Virus record (IMG/VR): IMGVR_UViG_638341084_000025
DNA length: 24,021 nt
Direction: 5' to 3' (one strand)
Origin: a virus
Taxonomy: Duplodnaviria > Heunggongvirae > Uroviricota > Caudoviricetes
The position numbers and the translations under genes are program-made. Position 1 is the first letter of the stretch. Each line of letters opens with the position of its first letter. Under the pieces are notes generated by a model, which made no database searches, was not told where the DNA came from, and saw nothing but the letters and a program-made list of their open reading frames with translations. This document shows positions 4,188 to 13,210 of the stretch, one piece after another.

Positions 4188-4263
4188 TGCACCTCACAAA
4201 ACGGGTGCCGGGTTTCGCAGCCTGCTGACTACACAAGCGCACAACCGCGCCAGCGGTTTTTTT
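4188..4263 (+). ncRNA. Candidate ~76-nt small RNA: 5' hairpin plus intrinsic terminator
   Basis: Lies between the candidate promoter and the terminator; hairpin GCACC(4189-4193)/GGTGC(4204-4208); no ribosome-binding site or credible ORF inside; carries repeats GTTTCGCAGC and ACTACACAAG that recur in the downstream leader. Confidence 0.25.
4243..4263 (+). terminator. Rho-independent terminator
   Basis: Stem AACCGC(4243-4248)/GCGGTT(4253-4258), 4-nt loop, then a run of seven T (4257-4263). Confidence 0.55.
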
Positions 4264-4275
4264 GTGCGTACTGTA

Positions 4276-4304
4276 TTGCCACGTTTTTTTCGCGTCAGAA
4301 TTAT
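4276..4304 (+). promoter_or_regulatory. Candidate second promoter (TTGCCA-17 nt-AATTAT) for the ORF76/ORF121/A transcript
   Basis: Same -35 hexamer as the upstream candidate promoter; located just after the terminator. Confidence 0.25.
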
Positions 4305-4442
4305 GGCGGGGCGTACGGGGCCGACTTCGGTCGGGCCGGGTTCTTGTGTAGCCGGTACTGCGAACCTCGTACGTCTCGCCACCCACAGTTTCGCAGCTCT
4401 GGATGGTGAGTTTTCACAACTTACTACACAAGGGGCCACACC

Positions 4443-5117: not shown

Positions 5118-7940
5118 ATGACGGCAGAGTATATCAGGGACTGGCAACAACCGCGCCACGCAGTGGGGCGTGAAGGAACGGAGATCCCCGCTCCTGAATC
5201 CGCGCTTTCCTCCTGGCTGGATGCCTACCGGGTAGAGAACGAACGCCGCCAGGAAATGGCTGATGCGGCGTTCTCCGCCACGCCGCTGGGCAACCTGATT
5301 AATAAAAGCCTGGACGCACAGGAAAAACAGGACAAAACCATCACACTGGCAGGAGACGCCAGAAAACAGGCACGTGGCGCGGTGGATGAAGCCATGGCCT
5401 CACTGCGCCTGCTGCCGTCCTATCTGCGCGATCCGCTTATTCGCCACCTCTCCTTCCTGCGCAAAAAACAGGAAGCCGATCGCCGGAAAGGCAAAAAGAG
5501 CTGGCAGGCTGAACGCTACGCGTGCGGAACCCTGCGCAAAATATTCGAACGTCTGGACCGCACCGACCACCGCTGGCTGACACCGGGTTATCGCTCCCTT
5601 GCCGGACGCGAACGCCTGGATGATTTGCTTTACCTGCCGCAGCTCAACAAACACCAGATACAGACGCTGGCCACCATGACGGCGGCGATGTTCAGCAGCA
5701 CCTTCGAAAAACTCTGCGATGGCTTTGGCGCGACTGATGGCGAGCTGACCATGGATGTAACGCTGAAGGCTTATCAGATGCTGGCCCGCATGGCGTTACA
5801 CCTGCACGCCATGCCTCCACATTATGACGCACTGACAACAGACAAAGACCGGAGGAACGAACCGGACACGGAGCTGCTGCCGGGCGCAATCCTTCGCCTG
5901 ACCTGTGCGGAATGGTGGAAACGCAAACTGTGGCTGTTACGTTGTGAGTGGCGGGAAGAACAACTCCGCGCCGCCTGTCTGGTTTCCAGAAAAACATCCC
6001 CCTATCTGAGCCAGGACGCGTTAAGCGAGTTTCGCGCACAGCGCGAGAAAACGCGCGATTTCCTGAAAAGTTTCATGCTGGAAAATGAAGACGGGTTCAC
6101 GATTGATCTCGAGACGGTGTATTACGCGGGAGTAAGTAACCCGGTTCACCGTAAGGCAGAAATGATGGCCACCATGAAGGGACTGGAACTTCTGGCCGAA
6201 GCCCGTGGCGACAGAGCGGTGTTTCTGACCGTCACCTGCCCGTCAAAATACCACGCAACAACGGAGAACGGTCATCCGAACCCCAAATGGAACGGGGCCA
6301 CCATGCGCGACTCCAGCGATTACCTGGTTAACACGTTTTTTGCGGCGGTCCGCAAAAAACTGAACCGCGACGGCCTGCGCTGGTATGGCATCCGCACGGT
6401 GGAGCCTCACCATGACGGCACTGTGCACTGGCATATGATGGTCTTTGCACATCCGGACGAGATTGAAACCATCGTGTCCCACGTCTGCGATATTGCCATT
6501 CAGGAGGACCGCCACGAGCTGGGCGATGACATAACTCCGCGTTTTAAGGCGGAGTATGTCGACGGCTCAAAAGGCACACCAACCAGCTACATCGCCACCT
6601 ACATCGGAAAGAACCTGGACAGCCGCGCCGTGGATGGCATCGACCCGAAAACGGGCAAGCCACGCGTTGACCACGAAACAGGTAAATCAATGGCCGAGAG
6701 CGTGGAGCGCGCCATCGGCTGGGCGCGCCTTCACCGGGTCCGTCAGTTCCAGTTCTTTGGCATCCCCTCCCGTCAGGTGTGGCGTGAACTGCGCCGCCTT
6801 GCCAGCCAGATGGCACGCAATCCGGAAGGCCCGCAACGGCTGAAAGATGATGCAATGGATGCGGTACTCGCTGCCGCCGATGCCGGGTGTTTTGCCACCT
6901 ACATTGAAAAACAGGGTGGCGTGCTTGTTCCACGCAAGGACTACCTGATTCGCACCGCCTACGACCTCGCAGATGAGCTGAACGATTACGGCGAACAGAG
7001 CGTACAGATTTACGGGATCTGGTCACCACTCATCGGGGAATCCTCCCGTGTGTGCACGCATCCGGATAACTGGAAGCTGGTAAGACGTAAACCAGAACCG
7101 GAAGACAACGCCCACGAAAATGGTTTTGACCTTCAGGGCGGCCCTGCCGCCCCTTGGACTCGTGGCAATAACTGTCCCCGTGTACAGGAAACAGGCAACA
7201 ACGGGACAGAACAGCCGGAAGAACGGCCAGCACCGTGGCCGCAGCTTCCTGACGGCGTTGAAGTAAATGAATGGATGCGCTCACTGAAACGGCACGAACG
7301 CCGGGCGCTGATGCGTTCGCTTCGTGACAAACAGGCAAAAAACAGCAGCGATGAAATGCAGAACTGGACACAGAGCCGCAAACAGCAGCGGCCTTTGCCT
7401 GATAACCACGAGTTACTCGCTAAAGAATGGCGGGAGTCTGCTGAATCTCTCGGCCTGCATATCGGTGAACAACAGATGCAGCACCTGTTACGGGGCGGCA
7501 GTCTGTACGTTGACGGCAGCATCATTGCACCGCAGGGATTTGAAATTGTACGCAAACCGGATACCCGCCCGGACAGCCGAATCACGCAGCTCTGGCAGCG
7601 TCTGAGCCGTAATCATGGCGTAAGCAGCACGGAGATCCGCCATAACCCGGTCGCCAGCTATCTGGCACAGCTGGGGGCATCAGACCCTGAAGCCGCCGCA
7701 CGCCTGGCATCCACACTTCAGCAGGACCAGAACACCATGAAAACACCCGTTACCGTGCTTTCTGACATGCTGCGCGCCATCCGCGACGCAGAGCACGCAC
7801 AGAGAATCAGTGAAACCACTGAACGCGCCAGCCGCAAAGCAGACCTGCTGCGGGGTGGCCTGACCAGTGGAAACAAAAAACAGACAGAAACGGGACTCAC
7901 GAATCCCGTAAATGAGCAAAAAACGCGCAGCGATATATGA
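5118..7940 (+). CDS. A: Replication initiation endonuclease, P2 gpA family (HUH rolling-circle initiator)
   Basis: 940 aa; HUH-type motif VHWHMMVF and paired active-site tyrosines YIATYIGK as in P2 A; position after the early genes. The C-terminal ~300 aa is low-complexity and appears to extend beyond P2 A (761 aa from memory). Confidence 0.85.
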   Translation: MTAEYIRDWQQPRHAVGREGTEIPAPESALSSWLDAYRVENERRQEMADAAFSATPLGNLINKSLDAQEKQDKTITLAGDARKQARGAVDEAMASLRLLPSYLRDPLIRHLSFLRKKQEADRRKGKKSWQAERYACGTLRKIFERLDRTDHRWLTPGYRSLAGRERLDDLLYLPQLNKHQIQTLATMTAAMFSSTFEKLCDGFGATDGELTMDVTLKAYQMLARMALHLHAMPPHYDALTTDKDRRNEPDTELLPGAILRLTCAEWWKRKLWLLRCEWREEQLRAACLVSRKTSPYLSQDALSEFRAQREKTRDFLKSFMLENEDGFTIDLETVYYAGVSNPVHRKAEMMATMKGLELLAEARGDRAVFLTVTCPSKYHATTENGHPNPKWNGATMRDSSDYLVNTFFAAVRKKLNRDGLRWYGIRTVEPHHDGTVHWHMMVFAHPDEIETIVSHVCDIAIQEDRHELGDDITPRFKAEYVDGSKGTPTSYIATYIGKNLDSRAVDGIDPKTGKPRVDHETGKSMAESVERAIGWARLHRVRQFQFFGIPSRQVWRELRRLASQMARNPEGPQRLKDDAMDAVLAAADAGCFATYIEKQGGVLVPRKDYLIRTAYDLADELNDYGEQSVQIYGIWSPLIGESSRVCTHPDNWKLVRRKPEPEDNAHENGFDLQGGPAAPWTRGNNCPRVQETGNNGTEQPEERPAPWPQLPDGVEVNEWMRSLKRHERRALMRSLRDKQAKNSSDEMQNWTQSRKQQRPLPDNHELLAKEWRESAESLGLHIGEQQMQHLLRGGSLYVDGSIIAPQGFEIVRKPDTRPDSRITQLWQRLSRNHGVSSTEIRHNPVASYLAQLGASDPEAAARLASTLQQDQNTMKTPVTVLSDMLRAIRDAEHAQRISETTERASRKADLLRGGLTSGNKKQTETGLTNPVNEQKTRSDI

Positions 7941-8016: not shown

Positions 8017-8976
8017 ATGAAAATTTACATCGACGACGGCTCCACCAACATCAAGCTGGCATGGACTGAGAACGGCGAACGCCGCAACGCCATCAGCCCG
8101 AACAGCTTCAAGTCGGAATGGTCTGCGCCGTTCGGTGGCTCGCAGCCTGCTAACTACATGCTTGATGGCGTGCGCTATGGTTTTGATCCGGTCAGCGATC
8201 GCTTTGTCCAGACGACCGACACGCAATACCAGTACAGCGATGTGAATGTCATTGCCATTCATCACGCGCTGGTCAAATCAGACATCACGCCACAGGAAGT
8301 GGATGTGGTTGTTACCCTGCCACTGAGCGAATATTTCGACACAAACGCACAGCCGGACATGGCCAACATCAACCGCAAAAAAGCGAACGTCATGCGCCCG
8401 GTGGAGTACCAGAACGGCGAAGCATTCACTATCCGTAACGTACGGGTTATGCCTGAATCCATTCCGGCTGGCTTTAAAGCACTGGCTGACATGAGTCCGT
8501 TTGAATCCCTGCTGATTGTGGATTTGGGCGGAACCACGCTGGATGTGGCAAAGGTTCAGGGGCAACTGGCAGGTATCAGCCAGGTGTTTTGCGATCCACA
8601 CGTAGGCGTTTCTCTTATGGCCGATGCCGTACTGTCGGTGATGGCCACTAACGGTATGCGCACCAGTCACCACATCGCCAATACCATTATCGAACATCGC
8701 CATAATGAAGCCTGGCTGCGCCAGCACATCCACAATGACGCGCATTACGCCAGCCTGATGGCGGTTATTCGTGAAAAGGAAGAAACACTGAAACAACGCG
8801 TGATCCGCGCGCTGGCGGTTTTTTCGGGTTACGGGCGGGTGATGGTTGTCGGTGGCGGGGCGGAGATTGTGGCACCCGCTATCCGCGAAGCCTGCGGAGT
8901 TAATGCGACTTTCATCGCGGACGGGGTGCCACANTTTGCTCTGGTTAATGGGCTGTACGCAATGGACAAGGAGTAA
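8017..8976 (+). CDS. parM: Actin-like segregation ATPase ParM/StbA
   Basis: 319 aa; MKIYIDDGSTNIKLAW, YSDVNVIAIHHAL, VMPESIPAG, LIVDLGGTTLD and VMVVGGGAEI closely follow the remembered plasmid R1 ParM sequence. One N at 8934. Confidence 0.85.
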   Translation: MKIYIDDGSTNIKLAWTENGERRNAISPNSFKSEWSAPFGGSQPANYMLDGVRYGFDPVSDRFVQTTDTQYQYSDVNVIAIHHALVKSDITPQEVDVVVTLPLSEYFDTNAQPDMANINRKKANVMRPVEYQNGEAFTIRNVRVMPESIPAGFKALADMSPFESLLIVDLGGTTLDVAKVQGQLAGISQVFCDPHVGVSLMADAVLSVMATNGMRTSHHIANTIIEHRHNEAWLRQHIHNDAHYASLMAVIREKEETLKQRVIRALAVFSGYGRVMVVGGGAEIVAPAIREACGVNATFIADGVPXFALVNGLYAMDKE

Positions 8977-8980
8977 ACCA

Positions 8981-9292
8981 ATGACGACACCAACCAGACG
9001 GATAAGTTTCTATCTGAAGCCCGCCGCCGTCAAGAACGAAGGAGAAGCATGCGCCTGGCTGGACAGCCTTACACCAGAAGCCCGCAAAAGCGGCCAACGC
9101 GTGGCTTTTCTGGCCGGGCTGGCACTTCTGAAGACGAATCCGGCAGAGGCTTACCGACTGGCCGCATGGGCTGATGATGAGATGTTACCTGTGACACAAA
9201 TCAGCTCAAAAAAGTTTGAAGCACAGTCTGCACCAGTGGCTAAGATAACCAGCCAGATGGCTGGGAATATCCGGGCGTTATTTCCTGAGTAA
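8981..9292 (+). CDS. parR: ParR-like centromere-binding adaptor (putative)
   Basis: 103 aa immediately after parM (stop 8976, ATG 8981, RBS AAGGAG); N-terminal RISFYLKP...ACAWLDSL and FLAGLALL loosely resemble R1 ParR (RHH fold). Assigned mainly by position and size. Confidence 0.45.
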   Translation: MTTPTRRISFYLKPAAVKNEGEACAWLDSLTPEARKSGQRVAFLAGLALLKTNPAEAYRLAAWADDEMLPVTQISSKKFEAQSAPVAKITSQMAGNIRALFPE

Positions 9293-9412
9293 AAGCATCT
9301 GCGCGAAAAATGCTCACGTTTATAGAGACAGTATCATTCCATTTGGCACACTTACTTCAATAATCGATCTGTTAAACAAATAGATTGTCTATTATCTATC
9401 GATTAAAACGAT

Positions 9413-9477
9413 CAATTATCTTGACAGTAATGTGCCTTTTTGTAAGATCGTTCGCATTGTGAGCGACAAGATAATTG
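9413..9477 (+). promoter_or_regulatory. Candidate promoter (TTGACA-16 nt-TAAGAT) bracketed by a perfect 11-bp inverted repeat
   Basis: -35 TTGACA 9421-9426, -10 TAAGAT 9443-9448; CAATTATCTTG (9413-9423) and its reverse complement CAAGATAATTG (9467-9477) flank the core, as an operator would. Confidence 0.35.
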
Positions 9478-9498
9478 CGCGGCATTGTCCATGCAAAA

Positions 9499-9526
9499 CG
9501 CCCCAATAGCAGCAACTATTGGGGCG
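9499..9526 (-). terminator. Perfect 11-bp-stem hairpin; terminator-like on the minus strand
   Basis: CGCCCCAATAG (9499-9509) / CTATTGGGGCG (9516-9526), loop CAGCAA; on the minus strand it is followed by TTTT (rc of 9495-9498); no U-tract on the plus strand. Confidence 0.4.
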
Positions 9527-9554
9527 TAAAACTCGGTCGGACTCACTTAACCTG

Positions 9555-9635
9555 ATATGCGTGCCTTCCGAAGTAAATCAAAATGTGCGTCGTATATTTT
9601 ATTGCTTACACGCACCTCTGTAAAGGCACGCATAT
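9555..9635. repeat. 13-bp perfect inverted repeat enclosing an inner hairpin
   Basis: ATATGCGTGCCTT (9555-9567) and AAGGCACGCATAT (9623-9635), 55 bp apart; inner stem GTGCGT(9585-9590)/ACGCAC(9610-9615); followed on the plus strand by TTTTT, then GAGG and the GTG start of the next ORF. Confidence 0.5.
9596..9624 (-). promoter_or_regulatory. Candidate minus-strand promoter (TTTACA-17 nt-TAAAAT), convergent with the plus-strand promoter
   Basis: rc of 9619-9624 = TTTACA, 17-nt spacer, rc of 9596-9601 = TAAAAT; it would drive a ~100-nt transcript antisense to the ORF89 leader, ending at the 9499-9526 hairpin. Confidence 0.35.
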
Positions 9636-9656
9636 TTTTCCTATGAGGTAAATAAA

Positions 9657-9926
9657 GTGCGGGCTAAAACAGGTATTTGCAAGAACCCTCATCGTTATAA
9701 TCCAACATTTCTGTCTCTCCCTGAATATCAAGGACAAGAAGGTCGGCACAAATGCGCTGCCTGTGCTTTTGAGCTAGGCATAAAAGATGCGCTTGAAGGA
9801 CGCGCTATGGCTCAGAATGATTTAGTTTTAGCTAACATTCCGTTTAGCCAGGCTGGAACTGTAAGGCACAGAGATGCCTATGAAGCATATGTTCGTGGTT
9901 GGCGATTAATAAACAGCAACAATTGA
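9657..9926 (+). CDS. Small Cys/His protein (89 aa), possible zinc-binding; unknown function
   Basis: GTG start with GAGG 9 nt upstream; Cys8, His12, His32, Cys34, Cys37 arrangement; followed by a clean terminator. Last gene before cos (P2 has orf91/tin/old in this position). Confidence 0.5.
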   Translation: MRAKTGICKNPHRYNPTFLSLPEYQGQEGRHKCAACAFELGIKDALEGRAMAQNDLVLANIPFSQAGTVRHRDAYEAYVRGWRLINSNN

Positions 9927-9934
9927 TACTTTTG

Positions 9935-9958
9935 AAGCGCCGATAAGGCGCTTTTTTT
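9935..9958 (+). terminator. Rho-independent terminator
   Basis: Stem AAGCGCC(9935-9941)/GGCGCTT(9947-9953), loop GATAA, then a T-run to 9958. Confidence 0.6.
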
Positions 9959-10084
9959 GTTTGCACGATAGTGCACAAGTTTGCACAATTTTTTTGAACG
10001 ACTTTTTGTACTTCCGGCCCGCGTGGTGGCTGGATCCGTCAAGGATCCGTACGTGCACAAAAAAACGCGTTTTTTCTGCGCGCA

Positions 10085-10103
10085 GGTGACGGGGGAACAG
10101 CCC
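10085..10103. other. Candidate cos cohesive-end site
   Basis: GGTGACGGGGGAACAGCCC matches about 13 of 19 positions of the P2 cohesive end as remembered (GGCGAGGCGGGGAAAGCAC); it lies between the accessory island and Q, as in P2; a cluster of N bases at 10127-10151 is consistent with read ends or assembly trouble at cos. Confidence 0.3.
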
Positions 10104-10362
10104 GCGTTTCAGGGGGTAAATAGCATNCCCTGAACGATGTCGCAGNGANANAACAGAATGGCTGTATTTCTCACGCTGAGCGTGAAAAAGACGTGAGGGC
10201 TTTTGATTTGATGGGGTGAAAGGTAAGGCCGTCAAAATCGCACTGAGACGGCGAGAACATGCAGTCAACGCGGTGGGATTGCGTAAGAGTCTGACTGTCG
10301 ATGATGGCAATCAGCAGGAAAGCGTCGTGAAATTATCTGACTGATACAGGAGCTGGAGAGTC

Positions 10363-10412: not shown

Positions 10413-11459
10413 TCAGGATGTGGGCTGGGTGTCTAACAGTGCGTAAGGGTTAAAGCGGATCACCTCTTCGCCAAGCCAGTCATTGATGTGCTTCATGGCC
10501 TCCATGACGGGCATCAGCTCGTTAATTGCGTAAACCCGCGCGGCCTTCTCCACATCACCAAACGCACTTTTTTCGCCCGGCATCGCCCCCATCAGTTGCG
10601 GCGGAACGCGGTGCGCAGCCAGCACATCATCACGGGATGCCGCCTTAACATTCATGAACTCATCTTTTGCGGTGATCTGCTGGAACGGCAAAATTTGCAC
10701 CCCTTCTTTGCCCCCGTTGGGCGCATGAATGAGCACGTTTTTAAATGCACCACCACCACGCGCACCCTGTAACGTTTCTTTCAGGGAGTCCATGCTTTCG
10801 CGGTTTACCTGCGCTGCACCGATGTAGATGATGCACCCGGCGTGGGATCCGTTGTCGTAGTACAGTTTTCTGAACATGTCCGCCGAATGAGAAAGGCTGG
10901 CCGAGAGTAATGCGCCAAGATATTCCGGCATGCCGTAGATTTCCTGGTTAATATCCGGATTCATCAGGTGGCACACTTTGCCAGGGCGAAACTGGAACGC
11001 GTCCTTGCCATCCTGCACATACCACCATGATTCAAGATCGCTTCCGCGTCGCATGTATTTCGCCAGGGCGTGCCGTAATTTAAGCGGTTCGCCGAGCATA
11101 TTGCTCCGAAGCTCAAGGAATGCGTTACCGAACACAAACCAGTCCAGCGCCAGCGCCGAGAAATCCTGCCGGGAAAGCAGCGGGTGCGGGATGTAGCACC
11201 CGAGCAATACATTACGCTTAAAGTAAAGCGCAGACTGATGCCAGGACGTTTGCCGGGCNGCTCTTGCCAGACNGTACCAGTCCACCGGGGTTTCATACCA
11301 CCGCCCGTTATCAGCACAGTACATATTGTCCAGCAGGTCATGCCCGGTCAGGCGATAAGGACCATCAAATGTGAATGCACTGAGCGATGATTCTTTCCTG
11401 AGCGCATCAGCGAGATCAATGCGTGAACTCATGCGCACTTTTTTATTTTTTCTGCTCAT
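10413..11459 (-). CDS. Q: Portal protein (P2 gpQ)
   Basis: 348 aa minus-strand ORF; N-terminus MSRKNKKVRMSSRIDLADAL and size fit P2 Q; start codon overlaps the P stop. Contains N bases (X in translation). Confidence 0.9.
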   Translation of the reverse strand: MSRKNKKVRMSSRIDLADALRKESSLSAFTFDGPYRLTGHDLLDNMYCADNGRWYETPVDWYXLARXARQTSWHQSALYFKRNVLLGCYIPHPLLSRQDFSALALDWFVFGNAFLELRSNMLGEPLKLRHALAKYMRRGSDLESWWYVQDGKDAFQFRPGKVCHLMNPDINQEIYGMPEYLGALLSASLSHSADMFRKLYYDNGSHAGCIIYIGAAQVNRESMDSLKETLQGARGGGAFKNVLIHAPNGGKEGVQILPFQQITAKDEFMNVKAASRDDVLAAHRVPPQLMGAMPGEKSAFGDVEKAARVYAINELMPVMEAMKHINDWLGEEVIRFNPYALLDTQPTS

Positions 11460-13210
11460 CAGAACTCCATAACCGTNAAACGCTCGTTTTCNCCTTCGCC
11501 GCCAATCGGTTCGTTAATGACAGCAAGCATGGTCGCCCACGCAAGGTCGCCGTGGCTGATCCCCCTCGCGCGGTCCGTTTCGTAAGTGATAAAGCCGCCC
11601 GGTGTTTTCACCTTACGCACGGCGTTAAAGGCCGCGACCAGTTCGCGTTCGGCGCGATCGTATTCCCACCGCCCGGCACGCATTATTTGCAGCATTTTCA
11701 GTACCAGCGACCGTTTTGATGACAGCGTGAAGGTGTACGGAATAGCAGCAGGGAAAAACCGTTTCACTATCTGATAAACAGCCTCCCCGTTCCCGCCCGT
11801 CACATCAATGCCGATGTGTTCCACGTTGTAGCGACACGTGAACTCTTCAATGACTCTGGCCTGTTCTTCAAACTCCAGCCCCTGAACGCGTCGCGTCTCC
11901 ACCGTTCGAAAACGGCCACCAGGAACAGCCGGAGGAACCACCACGGACACCGCGCCGCTGTCGCCGTTGCCACTGCTGCCGTTTGCGTCATACCCAATCC
12001 ATACCGGACGATTTCCCATCGGGCGGGGAGCAAAAGGTTTCCAGTCTTTCCAGTCGTCGTATCCGTCAACGCCGCAGCCAATCAGGATATTCAGGTTAAA
12101 TGCCGATTCCCCTTCGCGGACAAACTCACACATGTAGAGATTGAGGAACTCGTCTTCGGTGTTTTCATCGCGGATTTCGTCAATATCGGTGTGTTTCCAG
12201 CCGTGATTAACCACATCTTCCAGCGTGACAATCTGCCGCCATGTCCGGTCAGGGCAGATAAGTCCGTTATGCAGCGTTTTCCAGTCCACAGAAAAACGCT
12301 GGCGTTTATGCGAGGCCTTTTTCTCGTTCCAGCGGTCGCCGTTCCAGTAGGCGTATGCCTCGTGCGTTTCGGTGGATGGCGTGGAGAAGTAGGTGCGCCG
12401 CAGTCCGCTGAGGGTTGCCATAGCGCCAGCCACCTTGCGCAGTTCAGCAAAGCGACTGACCCAGAAAAATTCATCAAAATAAAAATTGCCCGTATAGGAC
12501 TGTGCCGACGCAGCAGAAGTGCCGAGAAAATGCAGCTCTGCGCCGTTGGAGAGGATGATTTTATCGCCCCCTTTCAGCTCCACATCAACTTCAGCCGCGG
12601 CCTTCTGAATAATGCTTTTAAACTGGAACGCCTGACGACGCGACGCAGACAAAAAAATCTGGTTACGCTGGTAAGGTTGCGCCACATCGTCACGCAGCGC
12701 CATCAGCAGCGCTTCCTGTGCAAAATACCAGGTCGCCCCAATCTGTCGGGATTTCAGGATCATCCTGTTACGTATCCCGGCTTCCCTGCAAAGGGTCAGG
12801 GAGTCAAACCAGCCCCGCTGATGCCACTCCAGCCTGCTGATGATTTTTTCCCGCAGTGCGGCAATCTGTTCCGGCGTGAAATGATTTTTGAGTTTTTTCG
12901 CCCGGCCTTTCTTTCCTGTGACCGTCGCATCCGGCTGGCCATCATGCAGTTTTTTAAGCTGCCGGGTCAGCAGGTCTATTTCCTTAAAGTCACCACCTGT
13001 TTTATTCTGTTTTTCAGTAAGCTGGATGAGGCGCGCATCGATGGACTGCGTGACACGCTGCACGGGTGGCGTTTCATCCCACTGGTCGCGTTTTTTCCAC
13101 GCATAAATCGTGTTCGGGTTTATTCCCATCAGACGTGATATTTCAGCGGGCGGATAACCCTGCCAGTAAAGTTGTCGCGCACGCTGGCGCACAAAAGCGT
13201 CCTGAATCAT
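11459..13210 (-). CDS. P: Terminase large (ATPase) subunit (P2 gpP)
   Basis: 583 aa; N-terminal HTH (MGINPNTIYAWKKRDQW) and size fit P2 P; divergent from O. Confidence 0.9.
   Translation of the reverse strand: MIQDAFVRQRARQLYWQGYPPAEISRLMGINPNTIYAWKKRDQWDETPPVQRVTQSIDARLIQLTEKQNKTGGDFKEIDLLTRQLKKLHDGQPDATVTGKKGRAKKLKNHFTPEQIAALREKIISRLEWHQRGWFDSLTLCREAGIRNRMILKSRQIGATWYFAQEALLMALRDDVAQPYQRNQIFLSASRRQAFQFKSIIQKAAAEVDVELKGGDKIILSNGAELHFLGTSAASAQSYTGNFYFDEFFWVSRFAELRKVAGAMATLSGLRRTYFSTPSTETHEAYAYWNGDRWNEKKASHKRQRFSVDWKTLHNGLICPDRTWRQIVTLEDVVNHGWKHTDIDEIRDENTEDEFLNLYMCEFVREGESAFNLNILIGCGVDGYDDWKDWKPFAPRPMGNRPVWIGYDANGSSGNGDSGAVSVVVPPAVPGGRFRTVETRRVQGLEFEEQARVIEEFTCRYNVEHIGIDVTGGNGEAVYQIVKRFFPAAIPYTFTLSSKRSLVLKMLQIMRAGRWEYDRAERELVAAFNAVRKVKTPGGFITYETDRARGISHGDLAWATMLAVINEPIGGEXENERXTVMEF

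What the first reader, a model, noticed from the sequence alone, without database searches (positions are those of the whole stretch)
9293..9656. Convergent promoters, each bracketed by a perfect inverted repeat, with a perfect hairpin between them
A plus-strand promoter (TTGACA/TAAGAT, 9421-9448) sits inside an 11-bp inverted repeat (9413-9423 / 9467-9477). A minus-strand promoter (TTTACA-17-TAAAAT, 9596-9624) sits inside a 13-bp inverted repeat (9555-9567 / 9623-9635). Between them is an 11-bp-stem hairpin (9499-9526) that is terminator-like only for the minus strand. The predicted ~100-nt minus transcript would be antisense to the ORF89 leader. On the plus strand the 13-bp repeat plus TTTTT forms a terminator-like structure just before the ORF89 RBS. 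This resembles countertranscript-driven attenuation as used in plasmid copy control. The segment is also AT-richer than the flanking phage DNA.
Basis: seen in the sequence. Interest (0 to 1): 0.6.

Follow-up and report, generated by a model that had tools for sequence, protein, structure and literature searches.

The report
Antisense RNA switch on a prophage cargo gene
A small accessory-gene cassette in a P2-like E. coli prophage carries a conserved backward-facing promoter inside its own structured leader, which most likely makes a ~95-nt antisense RNA that holds down an 89-residue protein of unknown function; it is a new, unannotated example of a familiar kind of control.

Summary

The region is the control part of a self-contained cargo cassette (9293-9955). 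It sits in the gpA-gpQ defence hotspot of a P88-like (Xuanwuvirus) prophage.

I compared about 30 distinct homologous leaders from five unrelated sequence groups, found at three different phage hotspots.
- All keep a minus-strand promoter, TTTACA-17-TAnnnT. Its -35 lies 35-40 nt upstream of the start codon.
- These are the only invariant blocks in an alignment with 54% mean column identity.
- All keep a GC-rich hairpin with a short U tail on the minus side only.
- All keep three mRNA helices maintained by compensatory changes.

A cis-antisense RNA acting on the ORF89 leader is therefore strongly supported. pT181-style transcription attenuation is not supported. The antisense RNA covers the 5' arm of the only terminator-like helix, and the U run after that helix is not conserved.

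The 11-bp repeat around the plus promoter is specific to this lineage and remains unexplained. ORF89 has no Pfam family and no fold match. No Rfam family and no paper was found. All of this is inference from sequence; no transcript data were available.

The parts
9293..9955 (+). Whole cargo (moron) cassette: upstream element, promoter, structured leader with embedded antisense gene, ORF89 and terminator.
   Evidence: Phage P88 and relatives match the window only up to 9292 and again from 9956 and carry other genes in this slot. GC is 0.40-0.44 against 0.52-0.57 in the flanks. The slot lies between gpA (5118-7940) and portal gpQ (10413-11459), which is the P2 defence hotspot of PMC9122126.
9359..9415 (.). 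Imperfect palindrome rich in ATCGAT, just upstream of the plus -35. It includes GATC at 9410-9413. Probably a protein-binding site; function unknown.
   Evidence: Inverted repeat I1. It is almost invariant between the window and L039/L040 although the flanks diverge. A 22-nt core occurs in 38 IMG/VR contigs, essentially the set that carries the ORF89 cassette.
9421..9448 (+). Plus promoter P(+), TTGACA-16-TAAGAT. Inferred transcription start near 9455, giving a leader of about 202 nt.
   Evidence: A promoter at the equivalent position, with GATC 5-6 nt upstream of the -35, was found in 19 of 20 leaders checked (not in L104).
9413..9477 (.). 11-bp perfect inverted repeat (9413-9423/9467-9477) bracketing P(+). 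Specific to this lineage and unexplained.
   Evidence: I5. Not conserved in L039/L040. No substitutions among the 13 G1 sequences compared.
9498..9527 (-). H1: 12-bp GC-rich hairpin, the probable terminator and 3' stabiliser of the antisense RNA (tail UUUUG on the minus strand).
   Evidence: (I4). An equivalent hairpin with different stem sequences is present in all 24 distinct antisense candidates. It is not listed by the terminator scan.
9494..9589 (-). Predicted cis-antisense sRNA of about 96 nt. Both ends are inferred, not mapped.
   Evidence: Lies between the minus promoter and H1. Fold energy -35.6 kcal/mol, z = -3.8. No Rfam family reaches threshold.
9555..9635 (+). Its 3' arm begins inside the minus -35 and runs toward the ribosome-binding site.
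   Evidence: A helix at the same position occurs in all five groups with unrelated sequences. It shows covariation in groups G3+G4. The covariance model aligns the window repeat to this helix.
9585..9615 (+). H3: inner mRNA hairpin (GTGCGT 9585-9590 with ACGCAC 9610-9615). Its 19-nt loop contains the -10 of the minus promoter.
   Evidence: Arms flanking the minus -10 are complementary in all five groups with different sequences.
9596..9624 (-). Minus promoter P(-), TTTACA (9624-9619) - 17 - TAAAAT (9601-9596).
   Evidence: Conserved as TTTACA-17-TAnnnT in 30 of 30 leaders. These positions are invariant in alignment A5.
9625..9660 (+). H4 region: local structure that can pair the Shine-Dalgarno GAGG (9645-9648) and the GTG start (9657), using part of the H2 3' arm.
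   Evidence: Much clearer ribosome-binding-site hairpins occur in the other groups (ACCTCA/TGAGGT, GCACCTT/AAGGTGC).
9657..9926 (+). ORF89: 89 aa, phrog_3941, function unknown.
   Evidence: 173 library representatives at E<=1e-3. AlphaFold model pLDDT 90.7 with no fold match.
9934..9954 (+). Intrinsic terminator that closes the cassette.
   Evidence: 8-bp stem with 5 GC pairs, followed by TTTTGTTT.

Best explanation
Window 9293-9955 is a self-contained cargo cassette in the gpA-gpQ hotspot of a P88-like prophage. A sigma-70 promoter (9421-9448) transcribes a ~200-nt structured leader followed by ORF89.

A second, convergent sigma-70 promoter (9624-9596) is embedded in the leader. Its -10 sits in the loop of an inner hairpin, and its -35 overlaps the 3' arm of a long-range helix. 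It makes a ~96-nt non-coding RNA that ends at the GC-rich hairpin 9498-9527.

This RNA is perfectly complementary to the 5' half of the leader, including the 5' arms of the long-range helix and the inner hairpin. I infer three consequences of pairing:
- it dismantles those helices;
- it leaves the 3' arms free to close a local structure over the Shine-Dalgarno sequence and start codon;
- it creates a long duplex that RNase III could cut.

The net effect would be to hold ORF89 synthesis low. Collisions between the two convergent polymerases may add to this.

Shown by sequence comparison: the promoters, the hairpin and the helices, and their conservation.
Inferred: that the RNAs are made, that the antisense RNA represses rather than activates, and the route by which it acts.
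For: - **Minus promoter.** TTTACA-17-TAnnnT occurs in 30/30 distinct leaders, with the -35 35-40 nt before the start codon.
- **Invariant blocks.** In a 20-leader alignment with 54% mean column identity, the invariant blocks are TGTAAAG and the three key -10 positions.
- **Plus promoter.** It is positionally conserved in 19 of 20 leaders checked (not in L104).
- **Hairpin H1.** It is present with different stem sequences in all 24 distinct antisense candidates, with U residues only on the minus side.
- **mRNA helices H2, H3 and H4.** They recur in five unrelated sequence groups.
- **Covariation in groups G3+G4.** 85% of cells are paired against 36-53% when partners are slid. The covariation score is 0.233 against at most 0.104 in the slid controls. 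No shuffle of 500 reached it.
- **Covariance model.** A model built from G3+G4 finds the G2 leaders (E 4e-4; 7.8e-7 locally). Its best local hit in the window is 9545-9654, with the 13-bp repeat aligned to H2.
- **Fold energies.** Leader z = -3.9 and antisense z = -3.8.
- **Effect of masking.** Masking the antisense-covered segment lowers predicted accessibility of the ribosome-binding site in 17 of 20 leaders (mean 0.41 to 0.29).
- **Linkage.** The leader was only ever found in front of ORF89 homologues.
Against: - No transcript data were available, so neither RNA is shown to exist.
- The U tail after H1 is short (2-4 U) and almost absent in L044. The scan does not call H1 a terminator.
- The predicted change in ribosome-binding-site accessibility is modest. 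In group G3 the ribosome-binding-site hairpin forms with or without the antisense RNA, so the structural-switch step is weakly supported.
- The covariance-model hit in the window is weak (8.1 bits).
- The covariation statistics come from related sequences and from helices I chose by eye.
- The inverted repeats around the minus promoter could in principle also bind a protein.
Confidence: 0.6

Rival explanations
1. Type I toxin-antitoxin or abortive-infection module. ORF89 would be a toxic effector and the antisense RNA a labile antitoxin. Loss of transcription, through prophage loss or shut-off by an infecting phage, would release ORF89 translation from a stable, structured mRNA. This extends the best explanation rather than excluding it.
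For: - A cis-antisense RNA against a long structured 5' UTR with a sequestered ribosome-binding site is the usual type I layout.
- The cassette is stand-alone and sits in prophage defence or moron hotspots: gpA-gpQ, downstream of cI in a P22-like phage, and between Q and the lysis genes.
- A homologue lies beside PemK and HepT toxin genes.
- The ORF89 domain is fused to HNH and NOV_C nucleases in other proteins.
Against: - ORF89 is 89 aa and shows no sign of being a membrane peptide by inspection of its sequence.
- No toxicity data exist.
- There is no match in PADLOC.
- In other phyla, homologues are ordinary last genes of restriction-modification operons with no antisense leader. That argues the protein is not intrinsically lethal.
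Confidence: 0.25
2. Countertranscript-driven transcription attenuation. The 13-bp helix plus T5 would act as an intrinsic terminator in the leader, and its formation would be controlled by the antisense RNA.
For: In the window, a 13-bp perfect stem is followed directly by TTTTT, 5 nt before the Shine-Dalgarno sequence. G2 leaders also have AUUUUAUU after the helix.
Against: - The antisense RNA covers the 5' arm of that helix. It would therefore block the helix, the opposite of pT181/pIP501 logic, and no alternative 5' partner exists.
- The helix closes a 55-nt loop and is not scored as a terminator.
- In G3 the U run lies in the loop of the ribosome-binding-site hairpin, 9 nt after the helix core. 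In L049 and L042 there is no U run at all.
Confidence: 0.1
3. Pure transcriptional interference. The convergent promoters, with starts about 135 bp apart, would regulate each other by polymerase collision or occlusion, and the RNA products would have no role.
For: The face-to-face promoter geometry is conserved in all groups, with starts about 100-135 nt apart.
Against: This does not explain the compensatory changes that keep three mRNA helices and the antisense terminator hairpin.
Confidence: 0.15
4. The inverted repeats are DNA elements: either operators for a repressor, or the ends of small invertible promoter segments.
For: Each promoter lies between perfect repeats. The 57-bp palindrome and the three ATTATCT copies near P(+) look like protein-binding sites.
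Against: - The repeat arms around the minus promoter differ completely between groups while staying complementary. That is an RNA signature, not a signature of a shared DNA-binding protein.
- The segments between the arms are 43 and 55 bp, which I judge too short for site-specific inversion (general knowledge, not tested here).
- All 32 IMG/VR contigs that carry both junctions have the same orientation relative to the upstream palindrome.
- 166 E. coli genomes cover at least 80% of the cassette. The rows listed are single colinear alignments at 98.8% identity or more, apart from one copy split by an IS1.
- No recombinase gene is in the cassette.
Confidence: 0.05

Closest known systems
Type I toxin-antitoxin loci whose antisense RNA targets the 5' UTR (hok/sok, ldrD/rdlD; also tisB/istR-1 and zorO/orzO, where the RNA binds far upstream of a hairpin-closed ribosome-binding site)
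   Same: - A small RNA complementary to a long structured leader.
- A ribosome-binding site held in a hairpin.
- Long-range mRNA helices.
- A stand-alone cassette on mobile elements and prophages.
   Different: - The target is an 89-aa protein with no sign of being a membrane peptide, a novel predicted fold and unknown activity.
- No conserved leader ORF of the mok type is present.
- Toxicity is untested.
- The antisense promoter sits inside the loop of an mRNA hairpin.
Antisense control of plasmid rep genes by translation (ColIb-P9 Inc RNA/repZ, R1 CopA/CopT)
   Same: The antisense RNA binds an upstream leader element whose long-range pairing influences a structured ribosome-binding site about 60-100 nt downstream.
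   Different: - No leader peptide or translational coupling was found.
- The target is not a replication gene.
- The long-range element is a plain helix, not a loop-mediated pseudoknot.
Countertranscript-driven attenuation (pT181 RNAI/II, pIP501 RNAIII, pAMbeta1)
   Same: Convergent promoters and a short countertranscript against the leader. In the window, a stem followed by a U run precedes the ribosome-binding site.
   Different: Here the antisense RNA would destroy the terminator-like helix rather than induce it, and the U run is not conserved.
Phage P22 sar RNA / ant, and IS10 RNA-OUT / RNA-IN
   Same: A phage or mobile-element gene whose leader contains a convergent promoter that makes a ~70-nt antisense RNA ending in a strong hairpin. 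Rfam gives a sub-threshold sar match (22 bits, threshold 43) to the hairpin only.
   Different: Those RNAs overlap the ribosome-binding site or start codon of their target. This one ends about 65 nt upstream of the Shine-Dalgarno sequence.
Cargo of the P2 gpA-gpQ hotspot (old, tin and others; Rousset et al. 2022, PMC9122126)
   Same: The same slot, next to cos, in a P2-like prophage. In this lineage it follows a ParM/ParR pair, as that paper reports for about a quarter of P2-like phages.
   Different: No defence phenotype or known defence domain is attached to ORF89. RNA-level control of hotspot cargo is not mentioned in the passages of that paper I read or searched.

Membership tests
Cis-encoded antisense RNA regulator (generic class) | A promoter on the opposite strand, inside the target transcript | tested here: met
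   TTTACA-17-TAAAAT at 9624-9596. It is conserved in 30/30 homologous leaders and invariant in alignment A5. Activity itself has not been measured.
Cis-encoded antisense RNA regulator (generic class) | A defined 3' end (terminator) giving a short discrete RNA | tested here: inconclusive
   A conserved GC-rich hairpin with U residues on the minus side only. However, the tail is only 2-4 U and the scan does not call it a terminator.
Cis-encoded antisense RNA regulator (generic class) | The RNA is actually produced and changes target expression | not testable with these tools
   Needs RNA-seq, Northern blots and reporter fusions.
Type I toxin-antitoxin | The protein product is toxic (classically a hydrophobic peptide under 60 aa) | tested here: inconclusive
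   ORF89 is 89 aa with no hydrophobic segment evident by inspection, so it does not fit the classic type. Soluble type I toxins do exist (SymE, RalR). Toxicity cannot be tested here.
Type I toxin-antitoxin | An RNA antitoxin base-pairs with the toxin mRNA | tested here: met
   Perfect complementarity follows from the geometry, 9494-9589. It is inferred, not observed.
Type I toxin-antitoxin | A labile antitoxin against a stable toxin mRNA | not testable with these tools
   Needs half-life measurements.
Countertranscript-driven transcription attenuation (pT181/pIP501 type) | Antisense binding induces an intrinsic terminator upstream of the ribosome-binding site | tested here: not met
   The antisense RNA covers the 5' arm (9555-9567) of the only terminator-like helix. 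The U run is not conserved. The helix is not scored as a terminator.
Countertranscript-driven transcription attenuation (pT181/pIP501 type) | The target is the replicon's initiator gene | tested here: not met
   ORF89 has no Rep domain. The phage replication gene, gpA, is at 5118-7940.
IncI-alpha/IncB/R1-type antisense translational control | A leader peptide whose translation is coupled to the target gene | tested here: not met
   No leader ORF is conserved across groups. The short ORFs in the window and in G2 leaders have no counterpart in G3.
IncI-alpha/IncB/R1-type antisense translational control | A long-range RNA interaction between the antisense target region and the ribosome-binding-site region | tested here: met
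   Helix H2 is conserved through covariation. Its effect on translation is only predicted, and the predicted effect is modest.
Rfam families sar, ctRNA_pGA1, Spot_42 | A score at or above the family's gathering threshold | tested here: not met
   Scores of 22.0, 22.1 and 19.4 bits against thresholds of 43, 45 and 80. There were no gathering-level hits in the region or in 10 homologous loci.
Cargo of the P2-like gpA-gpQ hotspot | Located between the replication endonuclease gene and the portal gene, and variable between related phages | tested here: met
   The hotspot is defined in PMC9122126.
Invertible promoter switch | Both orientations exist in sequence collections, and a recombinase is nearby | tested here: not met
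   32 of 32 contigs have one orientation. The listed E. coli copies are colinear. No recombinase gene is in the cassette.

The most novel reading that the evidence does not exclude
The cassette is a previously unrecognised RNA-gated defence or addiction module. A short-lived antisense RNA would keep a stable, folded mRNA silent. Its product would be a small DNA-recognition protein of novel fold, released when transcription collapses during infection or after prophage loss.

Three observations leave this reading open:
- The same domain is the last gene of Dam-class restriction-modification operons, including DpnII (GATC) operons.
- The domain is fused to HNH and NOV_C nucleases in other proteins.
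- GATC sites are fixed at the plus promoter in all groups. In three groups they also sit in both arms of the hairpin around the antisense -10.

Together these are compatible with expression, or the protein's target, being tied to the adenine-methylation state of DNA.
Probability: 0.15. Interest if true: 0.8.

Novelty: new member of a known kind. Interest (0 to 1): 0.55.

Why it matters
- **Prevalence and annotation gap.** At least 80% of the cassette is present in 166 of 5426 complete E. coli genomes (about 3%), with relatives in Salmonella, Providencia, Proteus, Yersinia and Rahnella phages. The RNA gene has no Rfam family, and in many of the genome records examined the ORF itself is unannotated.
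- **A new RNA family.** If the antisense RNA is real, this adds a conserved phage-borne sRNA and leader family that has five mutually non-complementary sequence versions.
- **An overlooked level of control.** It would show that cargo in phage defence hotspots can be controlled at the RNA level, something protein-centred hotspot surveys would not detect.
- **A handle on the protein.** Removing the antisense promoter would be a practical way to find out what the phrog_3941 protein family does.
- **If it is not real.** If the RNA is not made, this is simply a well-structured leader of an ordinary moron.

Tried and rejected
- **Rfam.** Searches of the window at gathering thresholds, of 9200-10150 at permissive thresholds, and of 10 homologous loci at gathering thresholds found nothing for the region.
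- **parC hypothesis.** I considered that the palindrome 9359-9415 is the centromere for the adjacent ParM/ParR. I rejected this because P88 has ParM/ParR without the block, and the block travels only with the ORF89 cassette.
- **Inverton hypothesis.** My first junction search was uninformative, because a perfect repeat makes the 'flipped' junction identical to the reverse complement of the native one. I resolved it by comparing strands with a third anchor: 32 of 32 contigs have the native orientation.
- **Small ORFs.** The 44-aa minus-strand ORF (9412-9546) and short plus-strand leader ORFs are not conserved in other groups.
- **RNAalifold.** I therefore used per-sequence duplex searches, a subgroup alignment and a covariance model.
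- **Variation within G1.** It is too small to test covariation. The few substitutions mostly fall in unpaired spacers, and one lies in H1.
- **Word-indexed protein search.** It returned only near-identical sequences.
- **Literature.** Searches by accession, by PHROG number and by topic found no description.
Full report
**Where the region lies.** The window is a P88-like (Xuanwuvirus, Peduoviridae) prophage of E. coli, 99% identical to Escherichia phage 520873 over the finding. The gene order is:
- gpA-type replication endonuclease, 5118-7940;
- ParM, 8017-8976;
- StbB/ParR-like partition protein, 8981-9292;
- the finding and ORF89;
- the cos region, then portal (10413-11459) and terminase on the minus strand.

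Phage P88 and its relatives match the window only up to 9292 and again from 9956, and they carry other genes in between. So 9293-9955 is a replaceable cargo cassette. It ends in its own terminator at 9934-9954. Its GC content is 0.40-0.44 against 0.52-0.57 in the flanks. The slot between gpA and the portal gene is the P2 defence hotspot described by Rousset et al. 2022 (PMC9122126).

**Checking the observation.** Three perfect repeats of 11 bp or more with loops up to 60 nt in 364 nt compare with 0.0065 expected from dinucleotide shuffles. None of 2000 shuffles reached three. Two cautions apply. The number of promoter-like matches alone is no higher than in shuffles. The terminator scan lists neither the central hairpin nor the 13-bp stem. 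Function therefore had to be judged from conservation.

**Collecting relatives.** ORF89 (89 aa) belongs to phrog_3941, of unknown function, and has no Pfam, NCBIfam or PADLOC family. Protein-guided scans of viral and genome collections, together with BLAST, gave about 30 distinct upstream regions. They fall into five groups whose leaders are too different to align by sequence alone:
- G1: the window and its near-identical copies.
- G2: other Xuanwuvirus prophages, for example L039.
- G3: lambdoid and P22-like prophages. This group includes Salmonella phage BIS08P22, where the gene lies just downstream of cI.
- G4: Yersinia and Rahnella.
- G5: Providencia and Proteus phages, in one case between Q and the lysis genes.

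The cassette therefore moves between at least three classic moron hotspots. The leader was never found in front of any gene other than an ORF89 homologue.

**The antisense promoter.**
- In every one of the 30 leaders, TGTAAA lies 35-40 nt upstream of the start codon. On the minus strand this reads TTTACA.
- Exactly 17 bp further along the minus strand lies a TAnnnT hexamer: TAAAAT, TACGAT, TAATCT, TACTCT, TAGACT or TAGTCT.
- In a MAFFT alignment of 20 leaders with 54% mean column identity, TGTAAAG is the only invariant run. The isolated invariant columns include the three that correspond to T1, A2 and T6 of that hexamer.

This is the pattern expected of a working sigma-70 promoter. I could not find a plus-strand reading that explains it.

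**The plus promoter.** It is also conserved in position in 19 of the 20 leaders checked, the exception being L104. That gives a leader of about 170 nt, or 202 nt in the window, which has a ~27-nt insertion. A GATC lies 5-6 nt upstream of the -35 in each of those 19.

**The hairpin between the promoters.** All 24 distinct antisense candidates fold into a strong GC-rich hairpin at the same place, with different stem sequences in different groups. On the plus strand it is preceded by G/A-rich sequence and followed by AAAAC. So only the minus-strand RNA has U residues after it:
- UUUUG in the window;
- UUUUCC in G2;
- UUUCCC or UUCCC in G3 and G5;
- almost none in L044.

A GUUUU run just upstream of the hairpin in the antisense RNA is nearly invariant. 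The predicted RNA is about 96 nt in the window (9589 to about 9494) and about 70 nt elsewhere. It contains no conserved ORF and matches no Rfam family.

**What the 13-bp repeat is.** In all five groups the mRNA can form three helices.
- **H2** is a long-range helix. Its 3' arm starts within or just after TGTAAAG and its 5' arm lies about 55-65 nt upstream.
- **H3** is an inner hairpin of 6-8 bp. Its ~19-nt loop holds the -10 of the antisense promoter.
- **H4** is a local hairpin over the Shine-Dalgarno sequence or start codon, and it shares bases with the 3' arm of H2.

The arm sequences are unrelated between groups:

| Helix | G1 | G2 | G3 | G4 | G5 |
|---|---|---|---|---|---|
| H2 | ATATGCGTGCCTT / AAGGCACGCATAT | GAGGTGTCATCT / AGATGAACACCTC | GTGCTTGAATGTTTT / AAAGCGTTCGGCAC | – | CAGGGTTTACA / TGTAAAGCCCTG |
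| H3 | GTGCGT / ACGCAC | – | GATCTCG / CGAGATC | GAGATCTC / GAGATCTC | GATCACC / GGTGATC |

Supporting numbers:
- On a G3+G4 alignment, 85% of cells are paired against 36-53% with slid partners. Seven pairs change on both sides. The covariation score is 0.233 against at most 0.104 in the slid controls, and no shuffle of 500 reached it.
- A covariance model built from those ten sequences finds the G2 leaders (E about 4e-4 in 126 kb; 7.8e-7 locally).
- In the window, its best local hit is 9545-9654, with the 13-bp repeat placed on H2. This hit is weak: 8.1 bits, E 0.04 in 201 nt.

The repeat that 'brackets' the minus promoter is therefore an mRNA helix, not a DNA feature of that promoter.

**Likely mechanism.** The antisense RNA is complementary to H1, the A-rich spacer and the 5' arms of H2 and H3. 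I masked that segment and refolded 20 leaders.
- Predicted accessibility of positions -14 to +3 fell in 17 of them (mean 0.41 to 0.29). The drop was strong in G4 and some G5 leaders, and moderate in the window (0.63 to 0.47).
- In G3 it hardly changed, because H4 forms in both states there.

I therefore favour repression of ORF89 by the antisense RNA. The route is open: closure of the ribosome-binding site, blocking of an upstream ribosome landing site, RNase III cleavage of the ~70-95-bp duplex, or polymerase collision.

The attenuation model fails for three reasons. Antisense pairing would remove the only terminator-like helix, not create it. The U run after the helix is absent or displaced in several groups. 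The helix encloses 55 nt and is not scored as a terminator.

**What remains unexplained near the plus promoter.** The 11-bp repeat 9413-9423/9467-9477 is intact in all G1 copies apart from a single-base gap at 9419 in the lower-quality phage record L003. It is absent from G2. Its core, ATTATCT, occurs three times: at 9391, at 9415, and inverted at 9469. The 57-bp palindrome 9359-9415 is almost invariant between G1 and G2 and travels only with this cassette, so it is not the parC site of the neighbouring partition genes. Both look like protein-binding sites for an unknown regulator.

An invertible-promoter reading is excluded as far as the data reach.
- All 32 contigs that carry both junctions have one orientation.
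- 166 E. coli genomes cover at least 80% of the cassette. The rows listed are single colinear alignments at 98.8% identity or more, apart from one copy split by an IS1.

**The regulated protein.**
- The family has 173 representatives at E<=1e-3 in a 1.84-billion-protein library.
- By inspection of the sequences, it is a tandem duplication of a ~35-residue motif, LPxSQxGxxRHKxxxxAYxxG. C8, H12, R30, G41, Q65, R70 and H71 are invariant.
- As a domain it is fused to WYL, DndB, HNH and NOV_C modules in other proteins.
- Outside Enterobacterales the free-standing gene is repeatedly found in or next to restriction-modification operons that carry a Dam-class (D12) methyltransferase. In L048 it is the last gene of a D12 methyltransferase-DpnII-N6_N4 methyltransferase operon. 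In another context it follows a D12 methyltransferase and a PDDEXK_11 nuclease. In a third it lies near a convergently transcribed methyltransferase pair. One homologue lies in a toxin-antitoxin island.

These contexts suggest a DNA-recognition role linked to defence, but they do not establish one. Toxicity is unknown.

**Comparison and verdict.** In working principle the closest systems are type I toxin-antitoxin loci whose RNA targets a structured 5' UTR, and the translational antisense controls of plasmid rep genes. P22 sar and IS10 RNA-OUT share the convergent-promoter layout but overlap the ribosome-binding site of their targets.

I file the finding as a new, unannotated member of the cis-antisense regulator class. 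I do not file it as a member of the attenuation family, because a defining feature was tested and not met. Type I toxin-antitoxin membership is undecided. No Rfam family and no paper describing it was found. The literature search covers open-access text only.

All functional statements are inferences from sequence conservation. No transcript or phenotype data were available.

Noticed in passing
window 4189-4386 (+): isrK (64 bits) and C4 antisense RNA (83 bits) lie side by side. This is the P1/P7/P4-type RNA-based immunity element of this P88-like phage, so the window holds a second, known antisense system.
   Followed up: no
window 9359-9415; L039 4016-4072: A 57-bp imperfect palindrome rich in ATCGAT sits directly upstream of the plus promoter. 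It is almost invariant between G1 and G2 cassettes although their flanks diverge, and it is found only with the ORF89 cassette. It is probably a binding site for an unknown regulator and is not parC.
   Followed up: partly
window 9410-9413; homologous leaders at about -217, -73 and -44 relative to the start codon: GATC (Dam) sites occupy fixed positions. One lies 5-6 nt upstream of the plus -35 in all five groups. In G3-G5, but not in the window or G2, one lies in each arm of the hairpin that encloses the antisense -10. In the G3-G5 leaders there are 3-5 sites per 260 nt against 0.6-1.6 in shuffles; the window has 2 against 0.7.
   Followed up: partly
L048 57-2764; L045 193-2755; contexts of P0018 and P0009: Outside Enterobacterales, ORF89 homologues lie at the end of, or next to, restriction-modification operons that carry a Dam-class methyltransferase, including a DpnII (GATC) system. 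They have no antisense leader there.
   Followed up: partly
[not shown]
   Followed up: partly
L039 4626-4913; L040 4614-4901: G2 cassettes carry an extra 95-aa gene (WP_000129682.1; no Pfam family) downstream of the ORF89 homologue. The ORF89 homologue itself is unannotated in those RefSeq records.
   Followed up: no
NZ_CM166350.1 1996361-1997805 (hit H24): One E. coli genome has an IS1X4 element inserted inside its copy of the cassette, so the match is split into two pieces.
   Followed up: no
window 9412-9546 (-): A 44-aa minus-strand ORF with a hydrophobic stretch (MSPTEFYAPIVAAIGAFC...) starts inside the predicted antisense RNA and reads through the hairpin. It has no counterpart in G3-G5, so I treated it as fortuitous.
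   Followed up: partly
window, e.g. about 8930-8950, 10130-10190, 11260-11490, 11470-11480: The window contains ambiguous bases. They appear as X in the translations of ParM, the portal protein, terminase and other ORFs. None lies in 9293-9955.
   Followed up: no
window 9391-9397, 9415-9421 (+) and 9469-9475 (inverted): There are three copies of ATTATCT around the plus promoter, and two of them form the core of the 11-bp inverted repeat. G2 leaders have only one copy, as TTTATCT.
   Followed up: no
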